Positions 8,301 through 25,077 of a stretch of DNA of 25,077 nucleotides are shown here, in pieces. Origin of the DNA: a virus; IMG/VR virus record IMGVR_UViG_3300048861_000143, positions 1 to 25,077 of that record. One strand, written 5' to 3'. The notes under the pieces were generated by a model. The model worked only from the letters and a program-made list of their open reading frames with translations. It was not told the origin of the DNA and did not search any database. A program made the translations under genes and the position numbers. Every line of letters begins with the position of its first letter. Position 1 is the first letter of the stretch.

Positions 8301-9744
8301 CAGATAGCGGGCTCACGGACGAGCCGTTGCCGCCGGCCCATCCGCCGCCGCTCCACTGCCACCACAGGCCGCTGGCGTTCTCCTGCCACACGGCGCCGCC
8401 GACGTAGGCGAGTTGCGTGACGTTGGCGCTGTAGCCGGCCGGCGCCCCATTCTCGAGCACGGCGCCATTGGCGATGGTCCAGGCGTTCCCGGATCCGTCG
8501 ATGATCGCGCCGGACGCGCCGGCCGCGAGCACGGTGTTATCCGGAGATGCGGGCGATCCGGGGGTGGGAGCCGGGGTAGGCGTGGGAGTGCCGCCGCTCG
8601 TCGCGCCGCGGAACAGCATCTGATCCCACATTGCATGCTGGCCGCTGCGCAGCGACCCGTCGTCGTTCAGGGTGCCGTCCGGGTACTGCCCGTCGAGGTT
8701 TCCCCAGGCCCACCAGTCACCCGACATCGGCTGCTGGTTGCCCGAGAACGTCGGGCCGCCGGCGGACCCATCCTTGCCGTTCATGTAATCGAGCAGGGAT
8801 TGGGCCCAGGCCTGCTCGCCCCCGAGATTGCCTCCGGCGCTGTCCGCCGTGCCATCCAGAGATCCGCCCATCTCGCCAATCCACACCGGCGCGATGTTCT
8901 GGGCCTCGAGGTAGCCGAAGGCCTTGTTCATGTCGGCCACGTTCTCGGCACCCGCGTCGGGGGTGAACCCCGCGATGGATGCCGGGTAGTCGTGCACCGA
9001 ATAGACGACCTTGTTGGCGACCGGCAGGCTCACCGGATCCTTGCCGGCGAGGCTGAGATCGCCCCACGGCGCGGGGCTGCCGCCGCCGCCCGCTGCGGCG
9101 TTCCCGCCGTAGTTCTGCGGGCCCTCGGCGATGATCAGCGGCCCAGGGTTCACGGCCTGGATGGCCGCCCCGACCTTGCTGTAGATCATCTGGAGGTCGG
9201 TATTAGGGTCTCCGGTCCCCCAGGTGGATGATCCGGAATACTCGAGAGGCTCATTGTCGAGGTCGAACCCGACAACGGTGCTGTTCCCGGCATAGTGCTG
9301 GGCGACGGTCACCCAGTTCTGCTGGAACTGCTGAAGGCTGACAGTGCCTCGGACACCGGCGCCATTGGTGCCGTCCGAAGCGCCGCCCACGTCATATGGC
9401 AGGCCGTTGCGCTGCTGGGAGCCGTAGCCGTCGGCGGGAGTTCCGACCTCGTTCGTGTGGTGGTCGAGAATGACCTTGATGCCGGCCGCCGAAGCTGCAG
9501 ACACGATCTGGTCGATGCGCTGGAGATCGTTGCCCATGGAGGCATCGACCCAGGACACGCGCACCGTGTTGAACCCGGCCGCCTTGATGGCATTGATGGT
9601 GCTGGGGATATCGCCGAAATCTTGGTTCCACCCGACCGAGGCGATGCGGACCGGGTTGCCGTTACTGTCGACGATCTGTGCGCCGGAGGTACTCAGATAG
9701 CCTGCAGGCAGCAGTTGAGGGCTGCCCGAGCTGGAACTGGACAT
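5341..9744 (-). CDS. Modular GH5 (cellulase-family) glycoside hydrolase with alpha/beta-hydrolase domain, three Trp-rich repeats, an unknown domain and an RTX/T1SS-like C-terminus
   Basis: GH5: NTVRV, VILDHH, FDLDNEP, SVHDYP, WIGEMG, WWAW. Esterase: TGNSMGG, HGGQD, HDVW. Pro/Thr linkers. C-terminal LTVDDF..G.GDSL...IHFN; no signal peptide. Confidence 0.9.
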   Translation of the reverse strand: MSSSSSGSPQLLPAGYLSTSGAQIVDSNGNPVRIASVGWNQDFGDIPSTINAIKAAGFNTVRVSWVDASMGNDLQRIDQIVSAASAAGIKVILDHHTNEVGTPADGYGSQQRNGLPYDVGGASDGTNGAGVRGTVSLQQFQQNWVTVAQHYAGNSTVVGFDLDNEPLEYSGSSTWGTGDPNTDLQMIYSKVGAAIQAVNPGPLIIAEGPQNYGGNAAAGGGGSPAPWGDLSLAGKDPVSLPVANKVVYSVHDYPASIAGFTPDAGAENVADMNKAFGYLEAQNIAPVWIGEMGGSLDGTADSAGGNLGGEQAWAQSLLDYMNGKDGSAGGPTFSGNQQPMSGDWWAWGNLDGQYPDGTLNDDGSLRSGQHAMWDQMLFRGATSGGTPTPTPAPTPGSPASPDNTVLAAGASGAIIDGSGNAWTIANGAVLENGAPAGYSANVTQLAYVGGAVWQENASGLWWQWSGGGWAGGNGSSVSPLSGGSTPTPTPPPVTTGDDASPGQWQIASVNGMQYMVLLPAGYDAHTAYATTLYLHQLDNGSYGPEALQQQIDAWFNTPTFRTDHPSIIVAPLLDQTSDPGGNTINWGGVSTADTAGETNAIAALKQVMAQYSVDPSRVYVTGNSMGGIGTEDMLIKYNALTGTEGHIFAAGLALAGADYGQDPTQMAALLKNVPYWAIHGGQDTQVPLATDRTVYAQSQAIGGDMRYTEDASLGHDVWDTYYTKTGPDSPLSWLYSQSTGGATGSPTPTPTPSPAPASASSDGTVVMAGTSATIVDASGHTWSISGGGTVLRDGSAAGYTANVAEIAYVKGAVWQENASGLWWKSDGGTGWGTGDGTSTSPLPASGGPVPTPTPAPTGGTGTGGLRDPSQIPFASTSVFNLPLGTGAQWAYNSQLAHASVWINTNGNYNENIWTGTASDPLVTVTNTGASGSTPGVYYVHIPVGAAPAGGQDMTFSVDDTTTHTWYGMGGFSWTGSNTATVSQGSGESDYGSGIQVDGSNWDQGVGTLRASDLAAGHIDHMLRMEMPFSMLASWGDNFDDMAPYAWPQTQEDGYGPGTYSGTIPYGVTVGIAQGAVEPDAVKANAGANMLWHELQNHGAMIRDSGDAGAGRVIFQTDQLVEQDNPLIQGMEQFGAQIMASVQILTNQGPNSVNGGGTPVVPLNAAPSSDPSATGSPVPNPTPAPTPAPTPSPVPVQASANDTVVLAGSSASIVDASGNAWTITNGVVQQNGSAAGYSAGVTEIAYVDGNVWQENSSDLWWQWGGDGWAGGNGSSVSPLPSTTPAPTPAPTPAPTPAPTPVPAPGQAEIDMVSSSTSLSISGATAGVVHANGDVFALTGAGSAAITLGSQVQSLHFVGMASVTLTGGSGASNVTADTGVNTFTAGTGPMEVTGGAGSAAYVVHAGAGALTVDDFSTGKGDSLTIDKSLRASMQVGSDGHGGTTLAFAGAGTVDLKSLAAVPTAAIHFN
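5836..5898 (-). repeat. Pro/Ala/Thr linker tandem repeat (PAPT)n
   Basis: Degenerate 12-nt period; similar PT linkers near 22095-22160, 23272-23363 and 24150-24195. Confidence 0.8.
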
Positions 9745-12249: not shown

Positions 12250-13308
12250 TCAGTCCACGCGAATGTCGTCCTCATTCCTGATCACATGCAGACGACGAAG
12301 ACCGTCGCGCAGCAAACGATTGTCTCCAGCAAGGCTCGGAATGCCTTGCCAGTCATAGGTAAGATCCCTGTCTGGATCGAACTGCGATTCGGTCAGAATG
12401 TCCTTGCGCGACAAGTAGACCCTGTTCCTCTTCGCCCCATGGAAGCCATGGATCAGTGTGCCATGCACAACACCGACGTCCTGCCGGATGTGCTCGTCGC
12501 AGCGCAGCGCATACTCCCTAAGTCTGCGCGTTGCGCCTTCCGAAATGTATGCCTCGCTCGTCGACAGCTTGCCCGCAAATGCAAGGGCGCTGTGGAAGTC
12601 GGCGCTGCCCGTGACCAGCCAATCCGGCAAGCCGCCGATGCCGTCCCAAGCCTCGCGCCTCATTGCCCAGGCGTAGCCATAGTGTTGCCTGTAATCCTTC
12701 TTCTCCCTGGTCTGAAGAAGAGCCCGTGAGTAGGCTGCTTTGGCCATCCCATAGCCATCCACAGGCACCTCAACGTCGCCAGCCACCCAGGCGGCGCAGA
12801 ATGAGCGGTCGGCATCATTGCCCCACTCGTTGCGCATGACCTCGCCATTCGGCCCAAGGTCGATCGAGTGCGACCATGGCTGCCCGACCCGATAGTGCTG
12901 CAGCATGTGGATCGTCTCGGTCGCCCAGTCCTTGCGGACAAAGGAAACGTCAGCGTCAATCCAGGCGAGGTATTTCCAGTCCTGAGGAAGGGTGCGGACA
13001 CCGATCTTTATCAGCGCCTCCTTGATCCACAGCTCCTGATTGGCCCCTCCCCTCACCATCACATGGTTAACGTGCGGCCCGAAGTGCTCCTGACTGAAGT
13101 CGTGGGGCCGGTCGCCGAATGCGTGCTGAACGAAGGTGAGACGGACGCCGCTGTCCAGCATGTGCTGAACGAACTCGGACGCGAGGCGGCGGCGGGACTG
13201 GAAGCGACGTGGGTTGTTGTAGACGGCAACGACGTGGAGGAGATCGGCGCGCACAGACTGTGCTCCTGGTGGGGCGTGGCGATAAAAGGGGGTGTGTGGC
13301 GGAAGCAA
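12250..13308 (-). CDS. GT-A fold glycosyltransferase-like protein
   Basis: W.KE.LI..G, YLAWIDADV (DxD), GYAWAMRREAW..IGGL, GSAD, HGFHG. Start uncertain (TTG, no clear RBS). Confidence 0.75.
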   Translation of the reverse strand: MLPPHTPFYRHAPPGAQSVRADLLHVVAVYNNPRRFQSRRRLASEFVQHMLDSGVRLTFVQHAFGDRPHDFSQEHFGPHVNHVMVRGGANQELWIKEALIKIGVRTLPQDWKYLAWIDADVSFVRKDWATETIHMLQHYRVGQPWSHSIDLGPNGEVMRNEWGNDADRSFCAAWVAGDVEVPVDGYGMAKAAYSRALLQTREKKDYRQHYGYAWAMRREAWDGIGGLPDWLVTGSADFHSALAFAGKLSTSEAYISEGATRRLREYALRCDEHIRQDVGVVHGTLIHGFHGAKRNRVYLSRKDILTESQFDPDRDLTYDWQGIPSLAGDNRLLRDGLRRLHVIRNEDDIRVD

Positions 13309-13332
13309 TCATAGTGATCGCCGCGCGATCGG

Positions 13333-13704
13333 TCAGTGACCGAGAAGCCGCGGGGCTAGCGAGCCGATCAGAGCGTCATACAACGGGTTCACAAGCACCC
13401 AGACGCAGCCGCCGATCAGTGATGCGGCGCCCCAGGCCCAAGCTAAAATCCGGCCGAGGTCGCGCCACCGATCATACAAAGCGTCAAGTCGCTTGGTGTT
13501 CTCGGTATGGCGCTTCTCGAAGTCGACCCTCATAACTTCGATCCGATCGGCCAAAGCCTTCTGCGCGACCCGCAGCTCCTCGTTCTCCCGACGCCGTTCG
13601 GCTGCGGAATCTCGCTGGGCCTGACGCACTTCGGCGAGGTCTTCGGACTGGCTGCGATTGGTGGCGATGATCTCGCCTAGCATACGCTGAATAGAGTCGG
13701 GCAT
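13333..13704 (-). CDS. Coiled-coil protein with C-terminal TM helix (holin/XhlA-like topology)
   Basis: ATG 13704 with GAGGAGG RBS (13776 possible); heptad region followed by ILAWAWGAASLIGGCVWVLV. Confidence 0.65.
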   Translation of the reverse strand: MPDSIQRMLGEIIATNRSQSEDLAEVRQAQRDSAAERRRENEELRVAQKALADRIEVMRVDFEKRHTENTKRLDALYDRWRDLGRILAWAWGAASLIGGCVWVLVNPLYDALIGSLAPRLLGH

Positions 13705-13785
13705 GGTCTCCACCTCCTCTGAACATGGTTGCGGAGAGCGTGGGCCGCGCAGGGCATCCACAATGCGCGAAAGCATGCCGGCGGC

Positions 13786-14298
13786 TCAGGCGATGCTCAG
13801 GCTGGCGCTGGGCACCGGCGTTGCAGTGCCCGCGAGCCGGTCGGCGATTGCCTGCTGGTAGGCCCAGACAAAGCCTTCGATAGCGGAGGCAAAATTCAGG
13901 AAGTTGGCGCCGTCGAAGTTGTGCGAGCTGCCGATCGGATAGGGGAACTTTGCGCCGCCGCCAGGCAGCGGCTTGCCGGCGGCGATCCCGGTCGAGATAG
14001 CTGAGATGTTCTGAAGCGATTGCGGGTCGATCGAGTAGATCCCGCTCAGTGAGGCGTCGGACACGCAATTCACGCTCACTCCGGCAGAGGCCGCCGCGGC
14101 GAAGCATTGCTGGACCAGGACTGAGAAGAGCTCATCGGTAGAGCCGATGCGGGTGGCAACCTTACCGGGTTGCTGCCAGGCCTGATAATCCGGATCCGAG
14201 GCCGGCACGAACATCATGCGAGCAGAGGACCAAACGCGCGAGGCGTCGCCGCTGACAATCCAGTACCAGTCCGAGAAGTTGTAGAATGTGACGATCAT
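13786..14298 (-). CDS. Tail-fibre-associated (chaperone-like) protein
   Basis: Directly follows the tail fibre; DWYW.V.GD..RVWSSA...VP.SDP.Y.AW and YSIDP.S..NI motifs (DUF4376-like). Confidence 0.6.
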   Translation of the reverse strand: MIVTFYNFSDWYWIVSGDASRVWSSARMMFVPASDPDYQAWQQPGKVATRIGSTDELFSVLVQQCFAAAASAGVSVNCVSDASLSGIYSIDPQSLQNISAISTGIAAGKPLPGGGAKFPYPIGSSHNFDGANFLNFASAIEGFVWAYQQAIADRLAGTATPVPSASLSIA

Positions 14299-14311
14299 TG
14301 TAGTTTCCCAA

Positions 14312-15829
14312 TTAGAGGTACTGACCGCCGTTTGTTGTCGTGCCGGCAGCGTTACCTGGGAGGTAGCTGATTCCTGCGCCGCCCGTGGTGAGCACGCCGT
14401 TGGCCTGGACGCTATAGCGCGACCCGGTCGCGGCCCCGGTGAAGACTGTTGATCCGAATGAGGCTACGCCGGTGAGCTGCACGACGGCAAAGGCCGAGGT
14501 GTAGGTCGGGGACGTCATGTTTAGCGTCGCGCCGCTGGCCTGGATCGAGGCTCCGGACGCCGAGAACGCGGCGGGCGAAGTCCCCGTGAACGTGAGCGGC
14601 CCGGTGAGGACGACTCCGCCCCCGCCGACAGCGCCAACCTGAGCGGCTCCGCATGACCCGAAGATGACGTTCCCCACATTGATCCATGAACTGGTGCCAG
14701 CGAGCACGCCATAGCCACTGGTCGCCCCTTGCGACCCAGTCGCGGTGATCTGGAAACCGTTCACTGAAATAGTGGCCCCGGAACCCGCCGAAATCCCATT
14801 GCTGTTGGAAGCGGTGATTTGGCAAGACGACGGTGAGGCGGCGTTGCCAATCAAGTTGATCGGCTTGCTGTGCCCTGGGGGCATCCCCGCGAATGCGGCC
14901 CCCACAGTGTAGGAGCCATTCGCGACCGAGATGGTCGCCTGATAGCCGGACCAGTCGTAGTTCATGTAGACGATGTTGATAGCCGCCTGCAGCGTCTTGA
15001 GCGCAGCGCCGGAAGTCAGGCCGCTGTTCCGGTCGTTGCCGAGGTTGGCATCCACATAGATCGTCAGGTCTGACGTCCGGGGCACACGGACTGGGGCCAT
15101 GTTGGCGTAGGGCAGCGTGCCCTGCACTTCGCTCTCGAGGTGGACCTTAGGAGCGTTGCCTGGTGTGCCGTAATGGTGGCTGCTCGTCAGGTTCGAAAGG
15201 AAGGGTGCGCCGGAATATTGGGCGATGGAAGCTGCGCTGATTGCGGACTGACCGGTCTGCAGCGTGACGACCCACAGGCCGAACCATCCCGTGTCGACCG
15301 CCGGCACCTGCTGAGAGCCGGTGGTGGCTGCGGCGCCAACCTTGACCTGCAGCGAGACCCTCTGGACCCGAGTCGTGTTCTGCGGTGTCCCGGAGTTCCC
15401 GGGCCCCGAGTAGGGCTGCGACGGATTCGCGCTGTTGTAGTAGTTCAGGACGTTCGGGTTTGCATCCGTCTCGGAAAACGACGCCTGAATCAGGAAGCTC
15501 TGACTCTGGCCGGCCGCGGTCGGGGCTGTGAACCCGAACGAAGTGGAAGATGTGTTGATGCCCATCTTGACCAGCAGATCGGTCGTGTCAGACGCGATGC
15601 TGCCGAATGCCGTGGGGTCAAGAGCCTGCAGGCTGATCATCGATCCGGGCTGGATCTGCACCTGCATCGACGCCGGCGCGGTGGGGACGCAGCCGAGGCC
15701 GCGGAAGACGGTCGTCGAGCCGACCAGGGCTTCCATCAGGTAGCCCAACGCGACCATGGTGTTCTGCTGAGGCTTCAGAATATCGGTATCGAGGGGGATG
15801 GCCCCTGCGAAAACGAGTTGGCGGTCCAT
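14312..15829 (-). CDS. Phage tail fibre/spike protein
   Basis: Conserved anchor MDRQ.V..GAIPL.TD.L...YYN..NP.QP.SGP.NSG. Distal IYVD...GND.NSGL....KTLQAAI followed by a Gly/Ser/Thr-rich beta-helix-like region. Confidence 0.75.
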   Translation of the reverse strand: MDRQLVFAGAIPLDTDILKPQQNTMVALGYLMEALVGSTTVFRGLGCVPTAPASMQVQIQPGSMISLQALDPTAFGSIASDTTDLLVKMGINTSSTSFGFTAPTAAGQSQSFLIQASFSETDANPNVLNYYNSANPSQPYSGPGNSGTPQNTTRVQRVSLQVKVGAAATTGSQQVPAVDTGWFGLWVVTLQTGQSAISAASIAQYSGAPFLSNLTSSHHYGTPGNAPKVHLESEVQGTLPYANMAPVRVPRTSDLTIYVDANLGNDRNSGLTSGAALKTLQAAINIVYMNYDWSGYQATISVANGSYTVGAAFAGMPPGHSKPINLIGNAASPSSCQITASNSNGISAGSGATISVNGFQITATGSQGATSGYGVLAGTSSWINVGNVIFGSCGAAQVGAVGGGGVVLTGPLTFTGTSPAAFSASGASIQASGATLNMTSPTYTSAFAVVQLTGVASFGSTVFTGAATGSRYSVQANGVLTTGGAGISYLPGNAAGTTTNGGQYL

Positions 15830-15903: not shown

Positions 15904-18900
15904 CTACTTGACGATCTTCACCAGGATCGGGTGCGCAGGCAGGCTGATGTTCACCGACGTGGTGCCGCTGGCGGACTGAACGGCGCTCTGGCCGACGAGC
16001 GGGTCATAGACGGTGATCGAGGTTGGAGCGACGGGGAAGCTCAACCCGACCGTCACGGGAGCTACCGTGATGTCTGCGCCGGTGCTCGTGTTATTGAGCT
16101 GCTGCTCGTTCCAGATGCACAGCCAGAAGCTGCCATCGGACGATTTCTGAAGCAGGGTATGTCCACCGCCCAGGTTGTTGCTGACCGCAGGCATATTGCT
16201 GAGCGTGTAGTTCAGCAAGCCGGGGGAGAAGCTGTTCGCGTTCGAACTGCTGTCGCCGAGGAGCGCGAACAAGTTCTTGATCGCCGTCGCTACTGGGCGC
16301 GGAACGCCGGCGTCGGTGAACAGCCCGTAGATGGAACTCTCGAGCGCATTGTCGTCGATCAGCTCGTAGTAGATGTAGTACGGGCACCCGGCGTTGAATG
16401 CGTCGAAGATTGTCTGGACGGTGTATGCCGCTGCCGTGGCCTGGCTAACGTCATTGTATCCAGAGCCGTTGATCTGGTGCCACCCGAACTCGGTGATCGC
16501 GACCGGCTTGCCTGGGGTCGGCATTTTGGCAAGGTTCATCATCCCACTCAGCGTCGCTGCAGGGGACGCGGCCGGATAGAAGTGCAGGTTGCCGTAAGTC
16601 GCGTAGGCCGCGAGATTTCCGACCGTAGGATAGTTGCCCTGCGTCGGATTGGTGTCCCATCCCTGACCGATAGACAGCTGGATAACTGGAATGCCGTACT
16701 GCTGTCCCCCGTCCCAGATCGTCGGCTGGTAGTTCACCGCGTCCTGGAGCGTCTCGGCGTAACCGAACATCTGGCCGCTGTCGGCTTCCTGGCATCCCTC
16801 AAACGCCACGAGGTATTGGCCCGGCACGGCCCCGGTGCAGTTGAACAATGTGTCAAAATCTGCTGCCGCCGCATTGGGAATGTAGGCGATGAACTGCACG
16901 TTGCACGCCTGGGCCACCTGTGACCAGTACGTCCCAATGTTCGGGCCGGTCGGGCAGTCACGTAAAAGCTTGATGCCGCCGAGATAGTTGATGCAGTTCT
17001 CGATCAAGGCGAGGCCAGCGCCCTGATAGCCTGCATTGTCGATGTGCGTGTTGACCCCGAAGCCATTCAGCATGTCCTGAGAGCGCTTGGCGCGCTCGCC
17101 AGTGGCATCGGTCGGGATTGTGCCGCCGGGACTGCCGCCGCCGGAAGATGCTGCGGTGACCGAGACCGAGATTGAGATTTGGTGAGACGACCCAGTTTGG
17201 TCCGTGAACTTGACGACGATGTTGTCGGACGTAGGAGAGGCCGGCGCCGTGTAAACCAGGTCGGCCGCAGCCGTCTGGCAGGGCCCTAGGGCGTTCGTGT
17301 AGGTGATGCTCTTGGTGTTGCTGCCCGCTACCTGAGCCGATCCAACGGTCGAGGACAGCGTGCCGAAGGAGCATGTCATCACCAGCGTGCACGATCCCGC
17401 GGCTGCGGCAGCCGCCGGATCGGTGATCGTGACGCCGGAGATCGGCAAAATTGTCGAGACAGTAGCCGCTCCGCTAGTCGGTCCCTGCACGACGGGATAG
17501 CTGGCTCCGCTCGTCTGGCTGCCAGCCACAGATCCGGTGCTGGCCACAGGATTCGCGGTCGTAACCCCCGTGACCGTGCTGGATGCCGTGGAGCCGGCGT
17601 TGTTCGTCGCGACGACCTGGAAGTCGTAACTCGTTGCTGCAGTCAGGCCAACGACGGTCTCGGACGAACTTGTCGTCGGCTGGCCGAACGTGATCCAGGT
17701 GCTCTGGCCAGTGACCCGGTATTGCACCACGTACGTCGGACTGCCGCTCGTGGACAGCGTCCATGCAACAACGATCGAGCTGCTGGTCGGCGATGTCGCC
17801 GAGACGCCGGTCGGAGCAGACGGGGCGCTTCCTGCCGATGCCGCGGTGGTAGCCGAGACTGTGGAGGATGCCGTTGATCCGGCCGTGTTCTGTGCCACGA
17901 CCTGCACGTCGTACTGCGTCGCTGGAGACAGCCCGGAGATCGTCAGTGTCGTATTCGCCGTGGGCTGACCTGCGCTGATCCAAGCGCTCTGGCCAGTGGC
18001 CCGGTAATTGACCTGATACGAGATCGGCGTCGTGCCGCTGCTTGACGCGGTCCAGTTTGCGGTCAGCGTCGTGGAAGTCGCCGACCCAACGGTAAGCCCT
18101 GTTGGCGCGGATGGCGTCGCGGCTGGAATGTTCACCGATGTGATTGCCGAAGTCGAACTCCCGGCGCCGTTGCTGGTCACGACCTGAAAGTCGTAGCGCG
18201 TGCCCGGCGTGAGCCCGGTCACGGTGGTGCTTGTCGTCTGGGTGGTCCCGCCCCAGTTCGTCCAGCCGTTCGTCCCGGTGACGCGGTACTGGACCTGGTA
18301 GTTGAGCGGGGGAGAGCCGGTGGCCGGCGCGGTCCAACTCAGCGCGACCGCACCGCCGGCTGGCGTCCCTGCGATGAGGCTCGTAGCTGGGGTCGGAGCG
18401 ATGCCGCCGGTCGAGGAGGTCGTCACCAGGCTCGCCCACGCACCCGCTGACGGCACGTAGACCTCGTAAGTGCCCAGGTCGCTGTTGCCGCGAAGATGGC
18501 CCAGAGCAGGCGCTGAGGGCCGCTGCTGGCTGGGGCCGGTCGGCAGCTGCGCAGCCGAACCCTTCAGGATGACAGGCGCTCCGCTAGCGGCGGTGAGCAC
18601 CAGGGCACCCCCAGCTGATGGGTCGGCCGCTACTCGCGAGGTGCCAGCCGTGTTCAGGGCGATGTCGCCGCCATCGGCCAGCCATACCGTGTGCGCCTCG
18701 GGGACGATCGTGTTGCCGTAGGTGGCATCCGCGACCGTGACGGCCGAGGCGAATGTCAGGACACCGCTGGTCAGGCCGGGGGTGACCGTGACAGCGGTCA
18801 CGCGATAGGCGTTCCCGTTGATCGTCACGTTCTTGGGGTTCGACGCGTTGGTAGCGGCGCCATTCACGCCCGCGCCAGCGAACGGGAGTGCATTGTCCAC

Positions 18901-21024
18901 CGACAGCGTCGTGACAGGGCTGGATGGAGTGCTTGAGGTGATCTTTGCGGTGGACGAGCTGGCCGTCCGAAAATCAAGCACTGAAGTCGAGTACTTGCCG
19001 CCGATCGACACAACCGAATGGGCGAACGCTGTCGGCGTGCTCGGCGCCAGGCAGAGAATGGAGGAGAAATCCGCTGGCTCTCCTCCGCTCCCGAGCGCGA
19101 TGTCCTCGCCGTAGATGATCTTGAGCCCGTAGCGGATCCCAGCGTCGTCCAGGCCGTTTGCAGTGACCGTGGCATGCGCGCCGGTCATTCGGCCGGACTG
19201 AGAGGACGGCAGGCCAGTGTGGTCGGCTGCGGACACTAGCGCGCCATGGATCTCCCCGAGCTGCGCTCCTGCCGGCACGCCACCGCTCGGAGTCGAGCGA
19301 TCAGCCCGCCCTCGGAGGGCAGTGTGTCGCGAGTTCCCGTCCGCGCCGGAGCGAGCCGCCGAAACGCTGACCGCACCATGGAGGCCCGCGAAAGAGCCGG
19401 CGGGGCCGTACCCGGTCCCATCGCCGGGAATGGTGACGGCCATGGCGAGGGCCGAATAGGCCGCTGTCGGACCGTCCCGGTAGATTGCCGTGTAGGAACC
19501 CGACACCATGTCGGAATCAGACGATCCGCCATTGCTGCGGGTGATTGCCAAGGCCGACGTGAGAGGGGCGCCGGCACCGGCCTGGGCGATCGTGATTGGA
19601 CCAACCGCGCCACCCGACTTGTCGAGCTTGGAGTCGAATTCGGCGTCAAGCTCCTCTGCTGTCAGAACGGAGTTGGGGCGAAAGGATGCTGAGGGGGACA
19701 CGGCGGCTCCCGTGGTTGGCGCGAGAATGGTGAGGGTGTTGGAAGCGACCGATCCGGCTGAGTTCGCGGCCAGGACCTGGAATTCGTAGTCTGTGCCTGG
19801 GGTCAGGCCGGTGACCGTTGCTGCGGTCATTGCCGACGGCATTCCATAGCTCTGCCATGTCGCGGTGCCAGCCACGCGGAACTGTGGCTGATAGGCGATC
19901 GGCATGGTGCCGCTGGCGGATGCCGACCACGACAGGCTCACGCTGGTCGGCGTGATGATCCAGGCGACCGGCGCGCCTGGCGCGGACGGCCTAACTACCT
20001 GGCTGAGAGTGGCGGCCGTTTGAGTGGCAGACGGAGTCGATCCGACACCATTTCGGGCTACCACCTGGAAGTCGTACGTCCGGCCGGAGACAAGGCTGGT
20101 GATGGTGACGGACAGGGCCGAGATTGGTTGCCCAAAATCCGACCACGCCGTTGTTCCGCTCGGCCGATACTGCGGCTGATAGAGGATCGGCGTCGTTCCA
20201 GACGAGGCCGACCAGGAGAGAGTCGCGGATGTCGAGGTGATGCCTACGACAGCGAACCCGCCAGGGACGCTCGGCGGCACCGTGATTGCAGGCGTGCTGG
20301 CCGTAAACGTGGTCGATGCGACCGTGCCGCCCGGGCCGGATGCGATGACCTGGAAGTCATAGGTCTGGCCTGGCGTTAGGCCGCTTGCTGTCCCGGATAG
20401 CGCGGAGCTAGCCGGACCGACGTTCGCCCATGCTGCTCCTTGTCCGGAAACCCGGTACTGGAGCTGATAGGTGATTGGCTGGGAGCCGGTAGCGGAGGCA
20501 TTCCAGCCGATCGTCAGGCTCGTCGTTGATGCCGAGAGTACCTGCAGCCCGGTGGGCAAACTCGGTGGCACAGAGAGCGACAAAGTGGTCGCCTGCGCGA
20601 TGCTCGAGATGACGCTCCCAGCCGGATTGATGGCCAGGACCGAGAAATTGCAGGGCGTCCCAGGCTGCAGGCCGGAAATCGTCGCCGAAACAGAGGCCGA
20701 TGGTGACCCCACCGGGGTCCAAGACGTCTGCCCCTGAACCTGATACTGCGCCTGATAGGTGATCGGGCTGGAGCCCGTCGTGGAGGCGGCCCAACTCAGG
20801 ACGGCGGAGGTTGAAGTGACACTGCTGACTGTTACGTTGGTCGGCGCGCTCGGGAGCGTGTAGTTGCCGGTCGTAACAGTGAGGATGTTTGAGGTCGCGG
20901 AACCCGCGCTGTTCGAGGCGACCACATCGAAATCGTAACCCGTCCCGGGCGTCAGCCCAGAGACGGGGAACGACGTCGACGTAGAGGCCGCGCCGACGTT
21001 CTGAAACGTCGTCGTTGCCGCCAT
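15904..21024 (-). CDS. Giant FN3-repeat virion-type protein with C-terminal clan GH-A hydrolase domain
   Basis: One half plus seven full FN3 repeats (W...Y.VQYR...GL.PGT.YDFQV.A.N). Phage fibre motifs VLTA.EL...F..KLDKSGG and LP.G...QRP..P..G.LR.N. Ig/cadherin-like domain. FGVNTH, FEGCQE, NLHFYP, ITEFGW, YEL.DD, YGLF. Confidence 0.85.
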   Translation of the reverse strand: MAATTTFQNVGAASTSTSFPVSGLTPGTGYDFDVVASNSAGSATSNILTVTTGNYTLPSAPTNVTVSSVTSTSAVLSWAASTTGSSPITYQAQYQVQGQTSWTPVGSPSASVSATISGLQPGTPCNFSVLAINPAGSVISSIAQATTLSLSVPPSLPTGLQVLSASTTSLTIGWNASATGSQPITYQLQYRVSGQGAAWANVGPASSALSGTASGLTPGQTYDFQVIASGPGGTVASTTFTASTPAITVPPSVPGGFAVVGITSTSATLSWSASSGTTPILYQPQYRPSGTTAWSDFGQPISALSVTITSLVSGRTYDFQVVARNGVGSTPSATQTAATLSQVVRPSAPGAPVAWIITPTSVSLSWSASASGTMPIAYQPQFRVAGTATWQSYGMPSAMTAATVTGLTPGTDYEFQVLAANSAGSVASNTLTILAPTTGAAVSPSASFRPNSVLTAEELDAEFDSKLDKSGGAVGPITIAQAGAGAPLTSALAITRSNGGSSDSDMVSGSYTAIYRDGPTAAYSALAMAVTIPGDGTGYGPAGSFAGLHGAVSVSAARSGADGNSRHTALRGRADRSTPSGGVPAGAQLGEIHGALVSAADHTGLPSSQSGRMTGAHATVTANGLDDAGIRYGLKIIYGEDIALGSGGEPADFSSILCLAPSTPTAFAHSVVSIGGKYSTSVLDFRTASSSTAKITSSTPSSPVTTLSVDNALPFAGAGVNGAATNASNPKNVTINGNAYRVTAVTVTPGLTSGVLTFASAVTVADATYGNTIVPEAHTVWLADGGDIALNTAGTSRVAADPSAGGALVLTAASGAPVILKGSAAQLPTGPSQQRPSAPALGHLRGNSDLGTYEVYVPSAGAWASLVTTSSTGGIAPTPATSLIAGTPAGGAVALSWTAPATGSPPLNYQVQYRVTGTNGWTNWGGTTQTTSTTVTGLTPGTRYDFQVVTSNGAGSSTSAITSVNIPAATPSAPTGLTVGSATSTTLTANWTASSSGTTPISYQVNYRATGQSAWISAGQPTANTTLTISGLSPATQYDVQVVAQNTAGSTASSTVSATTAASAGSAPSAPTGVSATSPTSSSIVVAWTLSTSGSPTYVVQYRVTGQSTWITFGQPTTSSSETVVGLTAATSYDFQVVATNNAGSTASSTVTGVTTANPVASTGSVAGSQTSGASYPVVQGPTSGAATVSTILPISGVTITDPAAAAAAGSCTLVMTCSFGTLSSTVGSAQVAGSNTKSITYTNALGPCQTAAADLVYTAPASPTSDNIVVKFTDQTGSSHQISISVSVTAASSGGGSPGGTIPTDATGERAKRSQDMLNGFGVNTHIDNAGYQGAGLALIENCINYLGGIKLLRDCPTGPNIGTYWSQVAQACNVQFIAYIPNAAAADFDTLFNCTGAVPGQYLVAFEGCQEADSGQMFGYAETLQDAVNYQPTIWDGGQQYGIPVIQLSIGQGWDTNPTQGNYPTVGNLAAYATYGNLHFYPAASPAATLSGMMNLAKMPTPGKPVAITEFGWHQINGSGYNDVSQATAAAYTVQTIFDAFNAGCPYYIYYELIDDNALESSIYGLFTDAGVPRPVATAIKNLFALLGDSSSNANSFSPGLLNYTLSNMPAVSNNLGGGHTLLQKSSDGSFWLCIWNEQQLNNTSTGADITVAPVTVGLSFPVAPTSITVYDPLVGQSAVQSASGTTSVNISLPAHPILVKIVK

Positions 21025-21047
21025 ATTTTCAGTCCTGGATTGGAGGA

Positions 21048-24000
21048 TTACAGCGTTTGGCTAAACAGCCACTGCCACACAGTTGAGTCGAGGTAGTACG
21101 TGTCCCAGACGTCATGGGACATATCCGACCGCTCAAGGTACTTCATCTTGCCACCGGCATTCGGGTTGAGTGCCGTGTAGCAGGCGCGATCCCAGTCGAG
21201 CGGAACGTTGGTATCCTGCGCGCCGTGGATCGCGTAGATCGGCACCGTCTTCAGAGCGCTGATCACCGAGGCATCGGGAGGCATGCCGTGGTCATAGGTG
21301 GCGCCTGCCATAATCAGAGCCGCGGAGAACAAGCGATCCTGCGTCCCGGCCGGACGGTTGAACTTGATGATGCAGTCCCACGAGCCGATGCCGCCCATGC
21401 TGTTGCCGGTCACGTAGACCTTGCTCACGTAGATCGGATAGGTCGCAATCATCTGCTTGACGAGAGCGATTGCGGCATCCTGTGCGGGCTGATCGCCAGG
21501 GTCTACACCTCCCCAGTTCTGGGAGGCGTCCCCGCCATCTGATCCCTGGTAGCACATCGGAGCGACGACGAAGCACGGGTTTGTCTTGCGCCAGGCTGCG
21601 GTGTTGAACCAGGGGTCGAGCTGCCCTTCCAGGGTATCCCACCCCATCGAGCCCCAGGAGAACTGGTGCATGTAGAGGATGAGCGGATAGCTCTTCGTTG
21701 GGTCGTAGTTGGCCGGAGGCAGCATGCCGTAGGTCACGCCCTGGATGGTCGAGACCTGCCATGTGCCGGGCGTCACGGTTCCGGAGAGAGGCGCCGAGAT
21801 GAGCGGTCCTCCGGTGTTCCCGGTTCCCCCCGAGGAGGTTGTGAGCGGGCTTGTGGTTGTGCCCAGCTGCGGCTGCCATGAGGCAGACGGGCTGGTTTTG
21901 CCATACCAGTAGCCGCTCGAGTTCTCCTGCCACACCGTCCCGCTGACGTAGGCTAGCTCCACCACGTTGGAGGTAGACGTGTCGGCCACGCCATTGACCG
22001 CCACCTGCCCGCCGCTCGTGATCGACCAAACGTTCCCGCTCGCATCCTGGATGACAGATCCCGACCCAGCCATCACCACAGTCCTGTCCGGAGACGGTGT
22101 GGGTGATGGCGAGGGGGTTGGGCTCGGGGTCGGGGACGGAGTGGGTGTTGGGGTCGTTGTGCCGCCGGACACCGGCGCGTTTGTCGGCGTCACATTGTAT
22201 CCGCTTGGATACCAAGCGCCGAAGCTCGACGGCGAAATGTTCACGCCGCCAGTTGGCGAAAGATCCAGGGGCGGCGGCTCGGGGAAGGCCGGATTGCTCG
22301 GCTGGCCGGGCAGCTTGCCCTTCAGCGTATCCAGCGAGTACTGCGCCCCCGGATTGCCCGGCTGGTAGTCGAGATAGCCGATATAGGCAATCGCGGCGCT
22401 GAGCTCGCCCGCAAGCTGTTGGGCGAACGCCAAGGTAGCCTGGGTAAGCGGGTAAGCTTCGAACGATATGCAACCGCTTCCGGCCTGGTTGTAGTAGCAA
22501 CCTCCGAAGCGCTGTAAGACATCCCACCAGAACTTGAACGCCCGATTGCCGACCTTCGAACTCGGGTAGACCGCATTCTGGGGAATGGCGACTGTCAGCC
22601 CCTGGATGATGCTCCCGGAGTTCGGGAACGACGTGTCAATGAGCTGCAGCGGCCATACCGGCTTACCGTTCGGCATCTGGAGGTTGTTCATAGTCCGGTA
22701 GTCGAGCGAGTAGGCGAGCATGTGCTCGCAGACCCAGTTCGGATCAGCCAGCGCCTGCTGGAGCTCCCACTCCTGGATCAGGGCATAAGCATTGCCTGTC
22801 CCAGGCTGGCCTGTGACCTGATCCTCGAAAAGCGGCCCCGAGCCGTCCGAGATATCGAGCAAGTTGCCCTGGATTCTCCAGCCTGGAGCGGAGATGGTGC
22901 TGATCGAGTTGCCGTTCGCATCGGTCATCGACGTGACGCCGATATTCCACATCCGGTATGGATGGGTCAGGTCGTAGCCACCAATTCCAAAGTCGCCGGG
23001 TTGCTCCATTGTGGCCCCGACCGGCAGCGGGACCGAAATCGTTTTATTGCCGTCCGTTACCGTCCCAACAGGGTCGCCCTGCTTTCCCACCCACATGGGC
23101 TGCGCCCAGTTCGGCGCGATGTTCAGGACGCCGCTCGGTGAGCCATTCAGGCCGTTCCGGAGAGCTGTGGCCATCGAGCCCGTCGTTATGATCGAGGCAG
23201 TTTTCTCGATCGGTTTGACCAAAAACGAGCCGTTCTGACTAGGATTCCGATACCAAATTCTGGTCGCCCCCGTGGGTGACGGTGTTGGTGTTGGCGTCGG
23301 CGCTGGGGTCGGGCTCGGAGTGGGGCTCGGCGTCGGCGACGGAGTGGGGGTCGGGGTCGTCGTGCCACCGGGGCGCGTATCGTACGTGTTGATGTAGTTG
23401 ATCCGCGCGTAACCAGGGAGTTGCGCTGGATTTGGATCACCTCCGATGTTTACGTAATCCGACCCGGTCAGCAGATACAGAAACGCCTTGGTGCCATAAT
23501 TCCCGTTGGGGGGCAGCGGCGTGACGCGATAGACCTGTGATCCGTCGATGTAGAACGTGATCCCACTCGACTGCCAGTCAATCCCATATACGTGGGTCTG
23601 CCGGGCGTCAAAGCCCTGAGCTGAGGATGTCGTCCAGATGAAATTGTTTGTGTTGGACGTGTCCCTCGCAACCTGGAACAGGACGGTCTGGACGCCAGTA
23701 TTGTCCGTGGAGATCCTGAGGTCGATTTCTGGGGGCCACGTTTGGATCAGCGGATATGACTCCAGGTCCATCTGGAAGGCGAACCCGTTGATCCGGTCGA
23801 CGGCGACGCTGATTTCGTAATACCCGTAGGTATTGAAATCGGTGTTGCCAGTGTTCAGCAGCGCTCCAGTAAATGGCATATGCGCGCCGGCCTGGCCGTC
23901 GATGTAGCTTTGGTAGTCTGCGGGCGTCGGGATCAGACCCAGCAACAGCTGGTTGCTCTGGATCTGGTAGACGCCACTGATCGGCGTGGAGGGGTTGTAC

Positions 24001-25077
24001 GGATTGACCCACCACTGAGACCCAGCTTCGCCGTAATTCGGGCCGCCTCGACCGTCGGTCGAATCGTTCGCGCAGAGCGCAAACGGATCACCTGAAGCCC
24101 ACGTGCGGTGTATCGAGAGGCCTTGGCTTCCGGAGTACGAGAAGCGCGGGGTCGCGGTCGGAGTGGGCGCCGGTGTGGGTGTCGGAGTGGTCGTGTGCAG
24201 CCGATACTGCGGCTGGTAGGTGATCGGCAGAGTTCCCGTTGCCGACGGCTGAAAGGTGAGCGTGAGGCTGGTTCCGGTGACGTTCGTTGCAGCCAGCCCA
24301 GTAGGAGCGCTCGGAGCAACGGAGCTTGGAGCCGAAGTGACAGCCGACTGAACGGTAGAGACGGAAGATCCTGCCGTGCTTGAGGCCGTCACCCGGAAGT
24401 CGTACGTGGTCGAGGGAGAAAGCCCGGTGATCGTTGCCGAGTAGCCGTTCGTGCCGGACCAGTTGCTCCAGCTCGAGCTGGAGCGCGGCTTGTACTGCGG
24501 GACGTAGGAGATCGTCCCGGATCCGACCGAGGCCGTCCAACTCAGAGCGACGGAAGAACTCGTGACCGCACCAAGGGTGACCGTCGGCGCACTCGGCGGA
24601 CTCGTCGAAGGCTGCTGCGAAGCCAGCCAGGTCTTGGCGTTGGCGATTTCGGTCGCCAGCGTGCGGCCCTCATCGTCGAGGTTCCCATTGCCGTCAGTGA
24701 GGTTGTCCGAGAAAGACTGGCCGATATACCAGTTCCATTCAGCAAACCCGCAGGTAAGACCCTGGGTCATTGCCCAACTGGTTACGGCTGTCCGCACCTG
24801 CGCTGCGTTCGCGTCGTCATGAACGCCATCGGTAGAAACGCCGAATTCCCAGATTCCGACCGGCATCGGGCCGGACGCTGTGGTTATCGCCTGGACGGAC
24901 AAAATACCCGTCCCGGAGGTGTCACCCTTCAGCGTCGCGTTGACATTATTCTGGTTGGTGGTGTCGACATTCCCTAGGTAGGCGCTGACCGCCCAGCCAT
25001 AGAAGTGCATGTCCATGGCCACGTTGGTCATGGATCGGTATTGCGAGGCGTCTACTGCGCCGACGCCCGTGTTCCGT
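21048..25077 (-). CDS. Partial (5' end outside window) modular protein: GH5 C-part, FN3, half FN3, GH16-like, unknown domain, Trp-rich repeat, esterase
   Basis: Frame is open from 25031 to the window edge. MHFY/WEFG/WNW (GH5 tail); YGYYE...WPPEID...HVYGIDW....FYIDG (GH16); TGNSMGG/HGAQD/HDVW (esterase). Confidence 0.85.
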   Translation of the reverse strand, partial: RNTGVGAVDASQYRSMTNVAMDMHFYGWAVSAYLGNVDTTNQNNVNATLKGDTSGTGILSVQAITTASGPMPVGIWEFGVSTDGVHDDANAAQVRTAVTSWAMTQGLTCGFAEWNWYIGQSFSDNLTDGNGNLDDEGRTLATEIANAKTWLASQQPSTSPPSAPTVTLGAVTSSSVALSWTASVGSGTISYVPQYKPRSSSSWSNWSGTNGYSATITGLSPSTTYDFRVTASSTAGSSVSTVQSAVTSAPSSVAPSAPTGLAATNVTGTSLTLTFQPSATGTLPITYQPQYRLHTTTPTPTPAPTPTATPRFSYSGSQGLSIHRTWASGDPFALCANDSTDGRGGPNYGEAGSQWWVNPYNPSTPISGVYQIQSNQLLLGLIPTPADYQSYIDGQAGAHMPFTGALLNTGNTDFNTYGYYEISVAVDRINGFAFQMDLESYPLIQTWPPEIDLRISTDNTGVQTVLFQVARDTSNTNNFIWTTSSAQGFDARQTHVYGIDWQSSGITFYIDGSQVYRVTPLPPNGNYGTKAFLYLLTGSDYVNIGGDPNPAQLPGYARINYINTYDTRPGGTTTPTPTPSPTPSPTPSPTPAPTPTPTPSPTGATRIWYRNPSQNGSFLVKPIEKTASIITTGSMATALRNGLNGSPSGVLNIAPNWAQPMWVGKQGDPVGTVTDGNKTISVPLPVGATMEQPGDFGIGGYDLTHPYRMWNIGVTSMTDANGNSISTISAPGWRIQGNLLDISDGSGPLFEDQVTGQPGTGNAYALIQEWELQQALADPNWVCEHMLAYSLDYRTMNNLQMPNGKPVWPLQLIDTSFPNSGSIIQGLTVAIPQNAVYPSSKVGNRAFKFWWDVLQRFGGCYYNQAGSGCISFEAYPLTQATLAFAQQLAGELSAAIAYIGYLDYQPGNPGAQYSLDTLKGKLPGQPSNPAFPEPPPLDLSPTGGVNISPSSFGAWYPSGYNVTPTNAPVSGGTTTPTPTPSPTPSPTPSPSPTPSPDRTVVMAGSGSVIQDASGNVWSITSGGQVAVNGVADTSTSNVVELAYVSGTVWQENSSGYWYGKTSPSASWQPQLGTTTSPLTTSSGGTGNTGGPLISAPLSGTVTPGTWQVSTIQGVTYGMLPPANYDPTKSYPLILYMHQFSWGSMGWDTLEGQLDPWFNTAAWRKTNPCFVVAPMCYQGSDGGDASQNWGGVDPGDQPAQDAAIALVKQMIATYPIYVSKVYVTGNSMGGIGSWDCIIKFNRPAGTQDRLFSAALIMAGATYDHGMPPDASVISALKTVPIYAIHGAQDTNVPLDWDRACYTALNPNAGGKMKYLERSDMSHDVWDTYYLDSTVWQWLFSQTL

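What the first reader, a model, noticed from the sequence alone, without database searches (positions are those of the whole stretch)
20869..24317. An FN3 domain split between two adjacent giant proteins
Seen: the upstream protein has only the N-half of an FN3 (24317-24195: APSAPTGLAATNVTGTSLTLTFQPSATGTLPITYQPQYRLH, then TTT and a PT linker). The downstream protein starts with only the C-half (21024-20869: MAATTTFQNVGAASTSTSFPVSGLTPGTGYDFDVVASNSAGSATSNILTVTT). Joined as YRLH-ATTT-FQNVG they match intact repeats (YQVQ-GQTS-WTPVG). About 3.2 kb of GH16/unknown/esterase coding sequence lies between. Inference: either an enzyme block was inserted into one ancestral gene, or the halves re-associate by strand complementation to dock the two proteins into a branched enzyme-bearing appendage.
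Basis: partly seen in the sequence, partly recalled or inferred. Interest (0 to 1): 0.8.

Follow-up and report, generated by a model that had tools for sequence, protein, structure and literature searches.

The report
Split FN3 joint linking tail proteins
Two neighbouring giant tail proteins of an uncultured phage each carry one half of a single small fibronectin-type (FN3) domain; related phages have kept this cut while swapping the enzymes attached to it, so the halves most likely snap together to hang a bundle of sugar-degrading enzymes on the tail fibre.

Summary
The upstream 1598-aa protein has FN3 strands A-B-C only (24195-24317, -), followed by a Pro/Thr linker and 3.1 kb of GH16 / unknown / esterase sequence. 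The downstream 1706-aa fibre starts with strands C'-E-F-G only (20869-21024, -). It is not a recent scar. Four divergent phage lineages (about 50% identity) show both halves cut at the same C-C' loop, each with different cargo after the N-half. At least six further fibre orthologues start with the same C-half. Each half is more conserved than the intact FN3 domains beside it, and each fibre gene has its own ribosome-binding site. One relative (P0265) carries the uncut form, N-half, GH16 cargo and C-half in a single chain. Other relatives cut FN3 at the B-C, C'-E and F-G loops at other gene borders, and two enzymes share one "plug". Best reading, at 0.75: an ancient nested insertion followed by gene fission, now a trans-complementing FN3 joint that docks an enzyme carrier onto the tail fibre. 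Binding is inferred; the complex prediction gave only weak support. A solved precedent exists (Tuc2009 BppU-BppA), and this scan has noted split FN3 joints in other phages, so I rate it a new variant of a known kind.

The parts
21048..25077 (-). Upstream giant protein P1, the enzyme carrier. It is 1598 aa in the genome (21048-25844); the window cuts off its first 256 residues. Order of parts: small Trp-rich domain, GH5, FN3, N-half FN3, then the cargo.
24318..24599 (-). Intact FN3 domain of P1, directly before the half domain.
   Evidence: Family FN3 profile positions 2-97, E 1e-19; Pfam fn3
24195..24317 (-). N-half of the split FN3 (strands A, B, C), ending ...YQPQYRLH: the 'socket'.
   Evidence: Profile positions 1-45 only, E 4e-11; alignment A2; 50-65% identical among four lineages, against 35-55% for the neighbouring intact FN3
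24147..24194 (-). TTT plus Pro/Thr linker that leaves the FN3 at the C-C' loop and leads to the cargo.
   Evidence: the same YR[LV]H + PT linker occurs in L005, L009 and L027
23370..24146 (-). Cargo 1: GH16-type glycoside hydrolase domain.
   Evidence: Pfam PF00722, E 2e-7
22167..23267 (-). Cargo 2: domain of unknown fold (about 370 aa), flanked by PT linkers at 23268-23369 and 22089-22166.
   Evidence: No Pfam or PDB sequence match. Homologous modules occur in P0010, at the C-terminus of P0265 and at the N-terminus of the L025 1879-aa protein
21834..22088 (-). Cargo 3: small Trp-rich beta domain (DASGNVW...VWQENSSGYWYGK). P1 also starts with a copy of it.
   Evidence: Internal repeat
21051..21833 (-). 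Cargo 4: alpha/beta-hydrolase esterase with a GNSMGG nucleophile elbow; ends ...WLFSQTL, then stop.
   Evidence: PDB 3DOH esterase, E 1e-18. The same esterase end lies before the fibre gene in L004, L005 and L007
21025..21050 (-). P1 stop codon TAA (21048-21050) and the 23-nt spacer, with an AGGA Shine-Dalgarno 8 nt before the fibre ATG. The two genes are in different frames.
20869..21024 (-). C-half of the split FN3 (strands C', E, F, G) at the very N-terminus of the fibre: the 'plug'.
   Evidence: Profile positions 42-93 only, E 3.7e-13; alignment A3; mean identity 0.58 among 7 orthologues, the highest of the five N-terminal FN3 units
15904..21024 (-). Downstream giant protein P2, the fibre (1706 aa). 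Order of parts: C-half FN3, 4 FN3 (19696-20868), fibre-type central domain (18403-19695), 3 FN3 (17536-18402), then a C-terminal region resembling the glycosidase-type end of related proteins.
   Evidence: The central domain sits at the N-terminus of ordinary fibre proteins of about 500 aa

Best explanation
P1 and P2 are two separately translated tail proteins. They lie directly after the baseplate J-like and I-like genes of a 150-kb contractile-tailed phage. They are most likely held together by one FN3 domain rebuilt from both chains. P1 supplies strands A-B-C and the first 52 residues of P2 supply strands C'-E-F-G, so each chain contributes to both sheets of the sandwich. The result would be a continuous rod: GH5, FN3, split FN3, 4 FN3, fibre core, 3 FN3, C-terminal glycosidase-like domain. 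About 1050 residues of cargo (GH16, unknown domain, small binding domain, esterase) would hang from the C-C' loop of the joint on a flexible Pro/Thr linker. That makes a branched, multi-enzyme appendage for cutting the host's surface polysaccharide. Origin: enzyme domains were nested into the C-C' loop of an FN3 in a single chain, and the gene was later broken at the end of the cargo. Shown here: the halves, their conservation, separate translation signals, variable cargo, and an uncut relative. Inferred: that the two halves bind each other, the stoichiometry, and the substrate.
For: 1. The cut is conserved. Both halves, cut at the same C-C' loop (N-half ending YR[LV]H followed by a PT linker; next fibre starting M-x(3-5)-[WF]-x-N/P-x-G), are seen in G000, L005/L006, L009 and L027. 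Fibre identity among these is only about 46-57%. The C-half at the N-terminus is also seen in P0004, P0006, P0007, P0177, P0192 and P0190, where the contigs end before the upstream half could be seen.
2. The cargo differs. Window: GH16 + unknown + small domain + esterase. L005: GH26 + small domain + esterase. L009: GH26 only. L027: GH26 ... GH16 + GSDH-like domain, 1845 aa, with one extra gene in between.
3. There is purifying selection. The C-half has mean identity 0.58 and pN/pS 0.41, against 0.45-0.57 and 0.47-0.59 for the four intact FN3s that follow it. Synonymous sites are saturated, pS about 0.7. The N-half is 0.50-0.65 identical, against 0.35-0.55 for the intact FN3 before it.
4. The genes are translated separately. 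Every fibre gene has its own SD 7-12 nt before the ATG. The two genes are out of frame in G000 and L004, and in frame but separated by one or two stops in L005, L007 and L009.
5. A cis form exists. P0265 has N-half (629-671), 345 aa of cargo and C-half (1018-1076) in one chain. Intact FN3s align across the insertion.
6. The theme is family-wide. FN3s are cut at the B-C loop between a gp25-like sheath initiator and an FN3-array protein (L011, L028; out of frame in L028). They are cut at the F-G loop along a chain running gpI-like protein, small adaptor, long protein (L025, L026). They are cut at the C'-E loop, where a GH5 and a GH26 gene start with a near-identical E-F-G plug.
7. Complex prediction of the two halves (alignments A2 and A3) gave weak support. 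The score was 0.47 and the best of 3 controls 0.00. The mark was reached by 58 of 80 solved complexes and 2 of 110 mismatched pairs, but at 0.60 or under by only 7 of those 80 and by both mismatches that passed. The runs agree in at least 93% of contacts and the partner's pLDDT is at least 73. This may simply reflect the model's memory of the FN3 fold.
8. A precedent has been solved. In Tuc2009 a C-terminal hairpin of BppU completes a sheet of BppA domain 2, giving a titin-like composite domain (PMC4742702).
Against: There is no experimental or structural proof of binding, and the only modelling result is weak and possibly memory-driven. How the P1-P2 assembly is fixed to the baseplate in this phage is unknown: unlike L025/L026, its gpI-like protein carries no FN3. 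No covariation between the halves could be shown; for example, strand B is F in G000 but W in L027, while both have F in C'. In L025 the tally is 3 sockets and 4 plugs, so pairing is not strictly one to one. There are few lineages, about 10, and all are metagenomic.
Confidence: 0.75

Rival explanations
1. The halves are an inert scar. An enzyme cassette with its own stop and start landed in, or recombined into, an FN3 of one ancestral gene. The two halves are leftovers that no longer fold or interact, and P1 and P2 act independently.
For: Modules in this locus are clearly shuffled. GH5, esterase, the small domain and the unknown domain recur in different orders in P1, in the 1467-aa protein at 5341-9744 and in relatives. 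'TTT' occurs on both sides of the break in the window.
Against: The same cut is kept in lineages only about 50% identical, with synonymous sites saturated. Both halves are more conserved than the flanking intact FN3s. All core residues are retained. The TTT duplication is absent in relatives. The cargo varies while the halves stay.
Confidence: 0.08
2. The product is one polypeptide after all. Stop-codon readthrough, a -1 frameshift or ribosomal bypass joins P1 to P2, so the FN3 folds in cis around a nested cargo, as in P0265.
For: In L005, L007 and L009 the two ORFs share a frame. A cis form exists naturally.
Against: In G000 and L004 the genes are in different frames, and L007 has two in-frame stops. 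Three of five lineages in frame is close to chance. Every fibre gene has a well-placed SD and ATG exactly at the C-C' loop. In the window there is no slippery heptamer between the P2-frame stop (21061-21063) and the P1 stop. The only matching CTG landing codon would continue out of the P2 frame (read directly). In L028 the B-C-loop split is out of frame as well.
Confidence: 0.05
3. The halves are functional but are not each other's partner. Each could pair with a copy of itself in an oligomer, or with some other virion or host protein.
For: In L025, sockets and plugs do not tally one to one, and two enzymes share one plug. So partner choice can be flexible in this family.
Against: In G000 these are the only two complementary FN3 pieces in the whole genome. 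They cover the profile end to end (1-45 and 42-93). They always occur together wherever both genes can be seen. Two A-B-C pieces or two C'-E-F-G pieces cannot rebuild an FN3 sandwich.
Confidence: 0.1

Closest known systems
Lactococcus phage Tuc2009 baseplate tripod: BppU C-terminal beta-hairpin with BppA domain 2 (PDB 5E7T; PMC4742702, read)
   Same: Two separately made phage baseplate or tail proteins are joined because one supplies missing strands to an Ig/FN3-like (titin-like) sandwich of the other. The docked protein carries a carbohydrate-binding module.
   Different: In Tuc2009 a terminal 25-residue, two-strand hairpin is added to a five-strand domain. Here the cut is 3 + 4 strands at the C-C' loop, so both sheets are mixed. 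The N-half is internal and is followed by more than 1000 residues of enzymes. No sequence relationship was tested.
Donor-strand complementation and exchange in chaperone-usher pili (Fim/Pap); from established knowledge
   Same: An incomplete Ig-like fold in one subunit is completed by strands from the next subunit, which gives very stable non-covalent chains. The F-G-loop splits in relatives L025/L026 have the same logic: the G strand is missing and the next protein's N-terminus supplies it.
   Different: There is no periplasmic chaperone or usher. The setting is a phage tail, not a pilus. In the window the donated piece is four strands, not one. The topology rebuilt is the canonical FN3.
Engineered FN3 fragment complementation (Dutta, Batori, Koide & Koide, Protein Sci 2005; title seen in the reference list of PMC11666773; paper itself not held)
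   Same: It shows that an FN3 cut into two fragments can reassemble with high affinity. From memory, the cut was between strands C and D, the same loop as here.
   Different: That was a laboratory construct of human 10Fn3. This is a natural, conserved split with cargo. The detail of the cut site rests on my memory, not on a text read here.
Branched tail fibres and multi-depolymerase phages (e.g. DT57C LtfA/LtfB, PMC10713586; CBA120- and G7C-type adaptor systems, from knowledge)
   Same: One virion attachment point carries a second receptor-binding or enzyme-bearing protein docked onto the first.
   Different: Those systems use N-terminal adaptor domains of whole folded modules. No split domain is described for them, and no such adaptor domain was detected by Pfam or PHROGs here.
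Cellulosome cohesin-dockerin scaffolds
   Same: Several glycoside hydrolases and esterases are gathered on a repetitive, linker-rich scaffold.
   Different: There are no cohesin or dockerin domains. Docking would be by fold completion, not by two folded modules.

Membership tests
Fibronectin type III domain (PF00041) | Seven-strand sandwich A-B-C-C'-E-F-G with a conserved strand-B Trp, strand-C Tyr and strand-F Tyr-x-Phe/Val. | tested here: met
   The feature is met only by the two pieces taken together: profile positions 1-45 in P1 and 42-93 in P2. Core residues are kept. Neither piece alone is a complete domain.
Trans-complementing split domain (two-chain composite sandwich, Tuc2009 BppU-BppA type) | The pieces lie on separately translated proteins. 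| tested here: met
   Stop codon, 23-nt spacer, AGGA SD, ATG, different frames. The same holds in relatives.
Trans-complementing split domain (two-chain composite sandwich, Tuc2009 BppU-BppA type) | The pieces physically rebuild one domain. | tested here: inconclusive
   The complex prediction gave weak support: score 0.47 against a best control of 0.00. That mark was reached by 58 of 80 solved complexes and 2 of 110 mismatched pairs, but a pass at 0.60 or under is rated weak. The result may come from fold memory. No experiment has been done.
Trans-complementing split domain (two-chain composite sandwich, Tuc2009 BppU-BppA type) | The split is maintained by selection across relatives. | tested here: met
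   Four lineages show both halves and at least six more show the C-half. The halves are more conserved than intact neighbours.
Donor-strand complementation pili (chaperone-usher) | A single missing G strand donated by an N-terminal extension, with a dedicated chaperone and usher. | tested here: not met
   The window's cut is at the C-C' loop (3 + 4 strands). No chaperone or usher genes are present and the context is a phage tail module. It works like donor-strand complementation but is not a member.
Programmed recoding fusion (readthrough, frameshift or bypass) | A conserved frame relation and a recoding signal at the junction. | tested here: not met
   Frames differ among relatives, own RBS are present, and there is no slippery site or in-frame landing codon.
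Nested domain insertion in a single chain | A host domain interrupted by a guest domain within one polypeptide. | tested here: not met
   Not met in the window, which has two genes. Met in relative P0265 and in the L025 1879-aa protein. This is the inferred ancestral state.
Cellulosome (cohesin-dockerin) | Cohesin and dockerin modules. | tested here: not met
   Pfam finds none in P1, P2 or their relatives.

The most novel reading that the evidence does not exclude
Split FN3 domains are a general plug-and-socket assembly code in this phage lineage. FN3s are cut at four different loops (B-C, C-C', C'-E, F-G). These cuts chain baseplate proteins (gp25-like sheath initiator, gpI-like wedge), small adaptors, the fibre and free-standing enzymes into a branched, cellulosome-like tail appendage. 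Enzymes can be exchanged, or can compete for a socket, simply by carrying the right plug; in L025 a GH5 and a GH26 share one plug.
Probability: 0.5. Interest if true: 0.85.

Novelty: new variant of a known kind. Interest (0 to 1): 0.68.

Why it matters
If the halves do bind, phages can build very large, branched, multi-enzyme tail appendages from separate genes by completing one small fold between chains. This makes no use of dedicated adaptor domains. It would explain how depolymerase cargo can be swapped while virion attachment is preserved. It would give annotators a rule: a half FN3 at a gene end predicts the partner. It would also offer a natural, evolution-tested 3 + 4-strand split-FN3 pair as a protein-ligation tool, comparable to engineered split-domain tags. 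The cis relative, the trans forms and the different cut sites together give an unusually complete series for studying gene fission inside a domain.

Tried and rejected
- A direct search of viral contigs with P2 residues 1-460 found no close relative.
- A scan of 185,579 prokaryote genomes found no prophage relative.
- A search for 'longer' fused homologues (over 2986 aa) found none; this is weak evidence.
- A profile search of 1.84 billion representatives found only one cluster that combines this fibre core with FN3 arrays (P0019). The core domain otherwise sits at the N-terminus of ordinary fibres.
- A single-sequence AlphaFold2 fold of the cis form P0265:615-1090 failed, with mean pLDDT 32.
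- The only usable alignment (A5) aligns intact FN3s across the insertion, which would make the outcome circular.
- The TTT on both sides of the break is not a target-site duplication: it is not present in relatives.
- Readthrough, frameshift and bypass were rejected.
- Covariation between the halves could not be assessed because there are too few lineages.
- Literature searches for a natural split FN3 in phages found nothing under those words. The Tuc2009 precedent came from earlier notes of this scan, and I checked it in the paper.
Full report
CONTEXT. The window is the first 25 kb of a 149.8-kb IMG/VR virus record, estimated 97% complete. On the minus strand the genes run in this order: tape measure, tail proteins, baseplate J-like wedge (phrog_6), a gpI-like protein (phrog_26379), P1, P2, a 505-aa protein, and further on a 1467-aa GH5 + esterase protein. 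P1 and P2 therefore sit where a contractile-tailed phage keeps its fibre genes. P1 continues beyond the window and is 1598 aa in the genome (21048-25844).

OBSERVATION. I built an FN3 profile from 30 intact repeats of this protein family and scanned all six frames of the phage genome. P1 has one intact FN3 (24318-24599) followed by a piece that matches profile positions 1-45 only (24195-24317, E 4e-11). P2 begins with a piece that matches positions 42-93 only (20869-21024, E 3.7e-13), followed by seven intact FN3s. There is no other clear half-domain in the genome. Both pieces align without gaps to the corresponding halves of intact repeats and keep the core residues. The cut lies in the C-C' loop: P1 keeps strands A-B-C and P2 keeps C'-E-F-G. 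After the N-half come a Pro/Thr linker, GH16, a second linker, an unknown domain of about 370 aa, a third linker, a small Trp-rich domain and an esterase related to PDB 3DOH. Then come TAA, 23 nt containing AGGA 8 nt before the ATG, and the start of P2 in another frame. No alternative start exists upstream in the P2 frame.

RELATIVES WITH THE SAME SPLIT.
- Searching with the FN3-free core of P2 found four orthologues, 46-50% identical. All of them start with the C-half alone: MADPTTWTNIG, MSGSNTWTPVG, MSGSFQNGG, MSGSWTNAG.
- Further searches added P0019/L009, P0171/L027, P0177, P0192 and P0190.
- Wherever the contig reaches far enough upstream, the preceding giant protein contains GH5, an intact FN3 and an N-half ending YR[LV]H, immediately followed by a PT linker. 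This holds for L005 (P0008), L009 (P0013) and L027.
- The cargo after the linker differs. L005 has GH26 + small domain + esterase. L009 has GH26 only. L027 has 1845 aa including GH26, GH16 and a GSDH-like domain, with one extra 498-aa gene before the fibre.
- In L004, L005 and L007, as in the window, the upstream protein ends with the same esterase (...W[LM]FSQ) just before the fibre start.
- Every fibre gene has its own SD 7-12 nt before the ATG.

SELECTION. Among seven fibre orthologues, synonymous sites are saturated (pS about 0.7). Even so, the C-half is the most conserved of the five N-terminal FN3 units, with mean identity 0.58 and pN/pS 0.41. The intact units have 0.45-0.57 and 0.47-0.59. 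The N-half is 50-65% identical among four lineages, against 35-55% for the intact FN3 before it. A non-functional remnant would not behave like this.

THE UNCUT FORM. P0265 (1538 aa, locus L026) has an N-half (residues 629-671, ending YTVQYRPH), then 345 aa of cargo (small domain + GH16), then a C-half (1018-1076, starting GQWITFG), all in one chain. MAFFT aligns intact FN3s straight across the insertion. Its cargo is homologous (phmmer E 6.7e-79) to the C-terminal cargo of P0015 in L011. In L011 the gene ends after the GH16. The next protein, P0016, carries GH39-like and Ig-like domains before the matching C-half. Cis and trans versions of one arrangement therefore exist among homologues. This points to nested insertion followed by gene fission.

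A FAMILY-WIDE THEME. Related phages cut FN3 at other loops, exactly at gene borders.
- B-C loop. A gp25-like sheath initiator ends with strands A-B (...VNVTWSG* in L011...IRVSWSTYAIP* in L028). The next gene starts at strand C (MSGTTTYQVRYRV, MSQSASSYIVRYRP). In L028 the genes are out of frame.
- F-G loop. In L025 and L026 the gpI-like baseplate protein and a small adaptor each end right after strand F (...YDFEVVTTNI*...YEFEVMAHNQ*). The next long protein begins with a G strand (GTSISQIITVTT).
- C'-E loop. The L025 1879-aa protein ends ...TWTNFTPTVVA*. The next two genes, a GH5 and a GH26, both start MASSYSQTVTGLTAGTSYNFRV, which is one plug on two enzymes.
- Nested in cis. The small Trp-rich domain sits inside the B-C loop of an FN3 in P0008 and in the L026 adaptor.

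MODELLING. Complex prediction with the two halves, given as alignments A2 and A3, returned weak support. The score was 0.47 (runs 0.48, 0.47, 0.47) and the best of three controls was 0.00. The mark was reached by 58 of 80 solved complexes and 2 of 110 mismatched pairs. At 0.60 or under, however, it was reached by only 7 of those 80 and by both mismatches that passed. The runs agree in at least 93% of contacts and the partner's pLDDT is at least 73. Because FN3 is a textbook fold, this may show likeness and not binding.

RIVALS.
- An inert scar is contradicted by the conservation and by the variable cargo.
- A recoded single chain is contradicted by the inconsistent frames, the two stops in L007, the dedicated RBS and the lack of a slippery or landing site.
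- Pairing with other partners is unlikely, because these are the only complementary pieces in the genome.

COMPARISON WITH WHAT IS KNOWN. The Tuc2009 tripod structure shows a BppU hairpin completing a sheet of BppA domain 2, which gives a titin-like composite domain (PMC4742702). So joining phage tail proteins by fold completion has a solved precedent. Donor-strand complementation in pili is the classical analogue. An engineered FN3 fragment complementation is on record (title seen; paper not held). Searches for a natural split FN3 in phages found no paper under those words. Earlier notes of this scan report split FN3 or LamG joints in other phages and giant viruses. These are unchecked AI notes and I do not count them as evidence, but the phenomenon has been seen by the scan on other DNA. 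What is new here is the 3 + 4-strand cut at the C-C' loop, an internal socket followed by more than 1000 residues of exchangeable enzymes, and a set of relatives that shows the cis state, the trans state and three other cut sites.

VERDICT. I rate it a new variant of a known kind, with confidence 0.75 in the docking reading and interest 0.68.

Noticed in passing
L025:12272-14605 (Logan SRR29078249 contig): A 1879-aa protein ends with FN3 strands A-C'. The next two genes (GH5 at 12453-13523, GH26 at 13535-14605) both start with a near-identical E-F-G piece, MASSYSQTVTGLTAGTSYNFRV. That is two different enzymes with one plug for one socket. The locus has 3 N-type and 4 C-type FN3 pieces.
   Followed up: partly
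L011:9608-10060 and L028:4633-5104: A gp25-like sheath initiator (phrog_120 / PF10934) carries FN3 strands A-B as a C-terminal tail, and the next gene starts at strand C. The two are in frame across a TAA in L011 and out of frame (TGA-g-ATG) in L028.
   Followed up: partly
L025:2390-3945 and L026:6182-8045: A gpI-like baseplate protein (PF27728) and a small adaptor gene each end right after FN3 strand F. The following protein begins with a G-strand-like peptide. This gives a chain of pilus-style single-strand donations.
   Followed up: partly
window 21834-22088 and genome 25590-25844; L005 P0008 residues ~1215-1300; L026:7526-8011: A Trp-rich domain of about 85 aa (DASGNVW...VWQENSSGYWYGK) with no Pfam match starts P1 and precedes its esterase. 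In relatives it is nested inside the B-C loop of an FN3. It is probably a carbohydrate-binding module.
   Followed up: no
window 22167-23267: A domain of about 370 aa has no Pfam or PDB sequence match. It recurs in the 1467-aa protein (about 26% identity to 5977-7041), in P0010, at the C-terminus of P0265 and at the N-terminus of the L025 1879-aa protein. It is a candidate new enzyme or binding module of phage appendages.
   Followed up: no
L027:15055-16359 and L004:19005-20174: IS605-family OrfB/TnpB genes sit on the opposite strand next to the fibre cluster in two relatives. In L027 the gene overlaps the last ~100 nt of the fibre gene.
   Followed up: no
window 18403-19695 (P2 residues 444-874): The last ~90 residues of the fibre core (RLPTG..QRP..G.LR.N...YE.Y....W) form a unit repeated up to 12 times in unrelated metagenomic proteins. 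It gives a weak hit to a designed protein, SAKe6BR (7Q58).
   Followed up: no
L004:57-4047: The upstream enzyme carrier of this relative is called as two overlapping ORFs (608 and 731 aa, overlap 1852-1883). This could be a frameshift, a sequencing error or a further fission.
   Followed up: no
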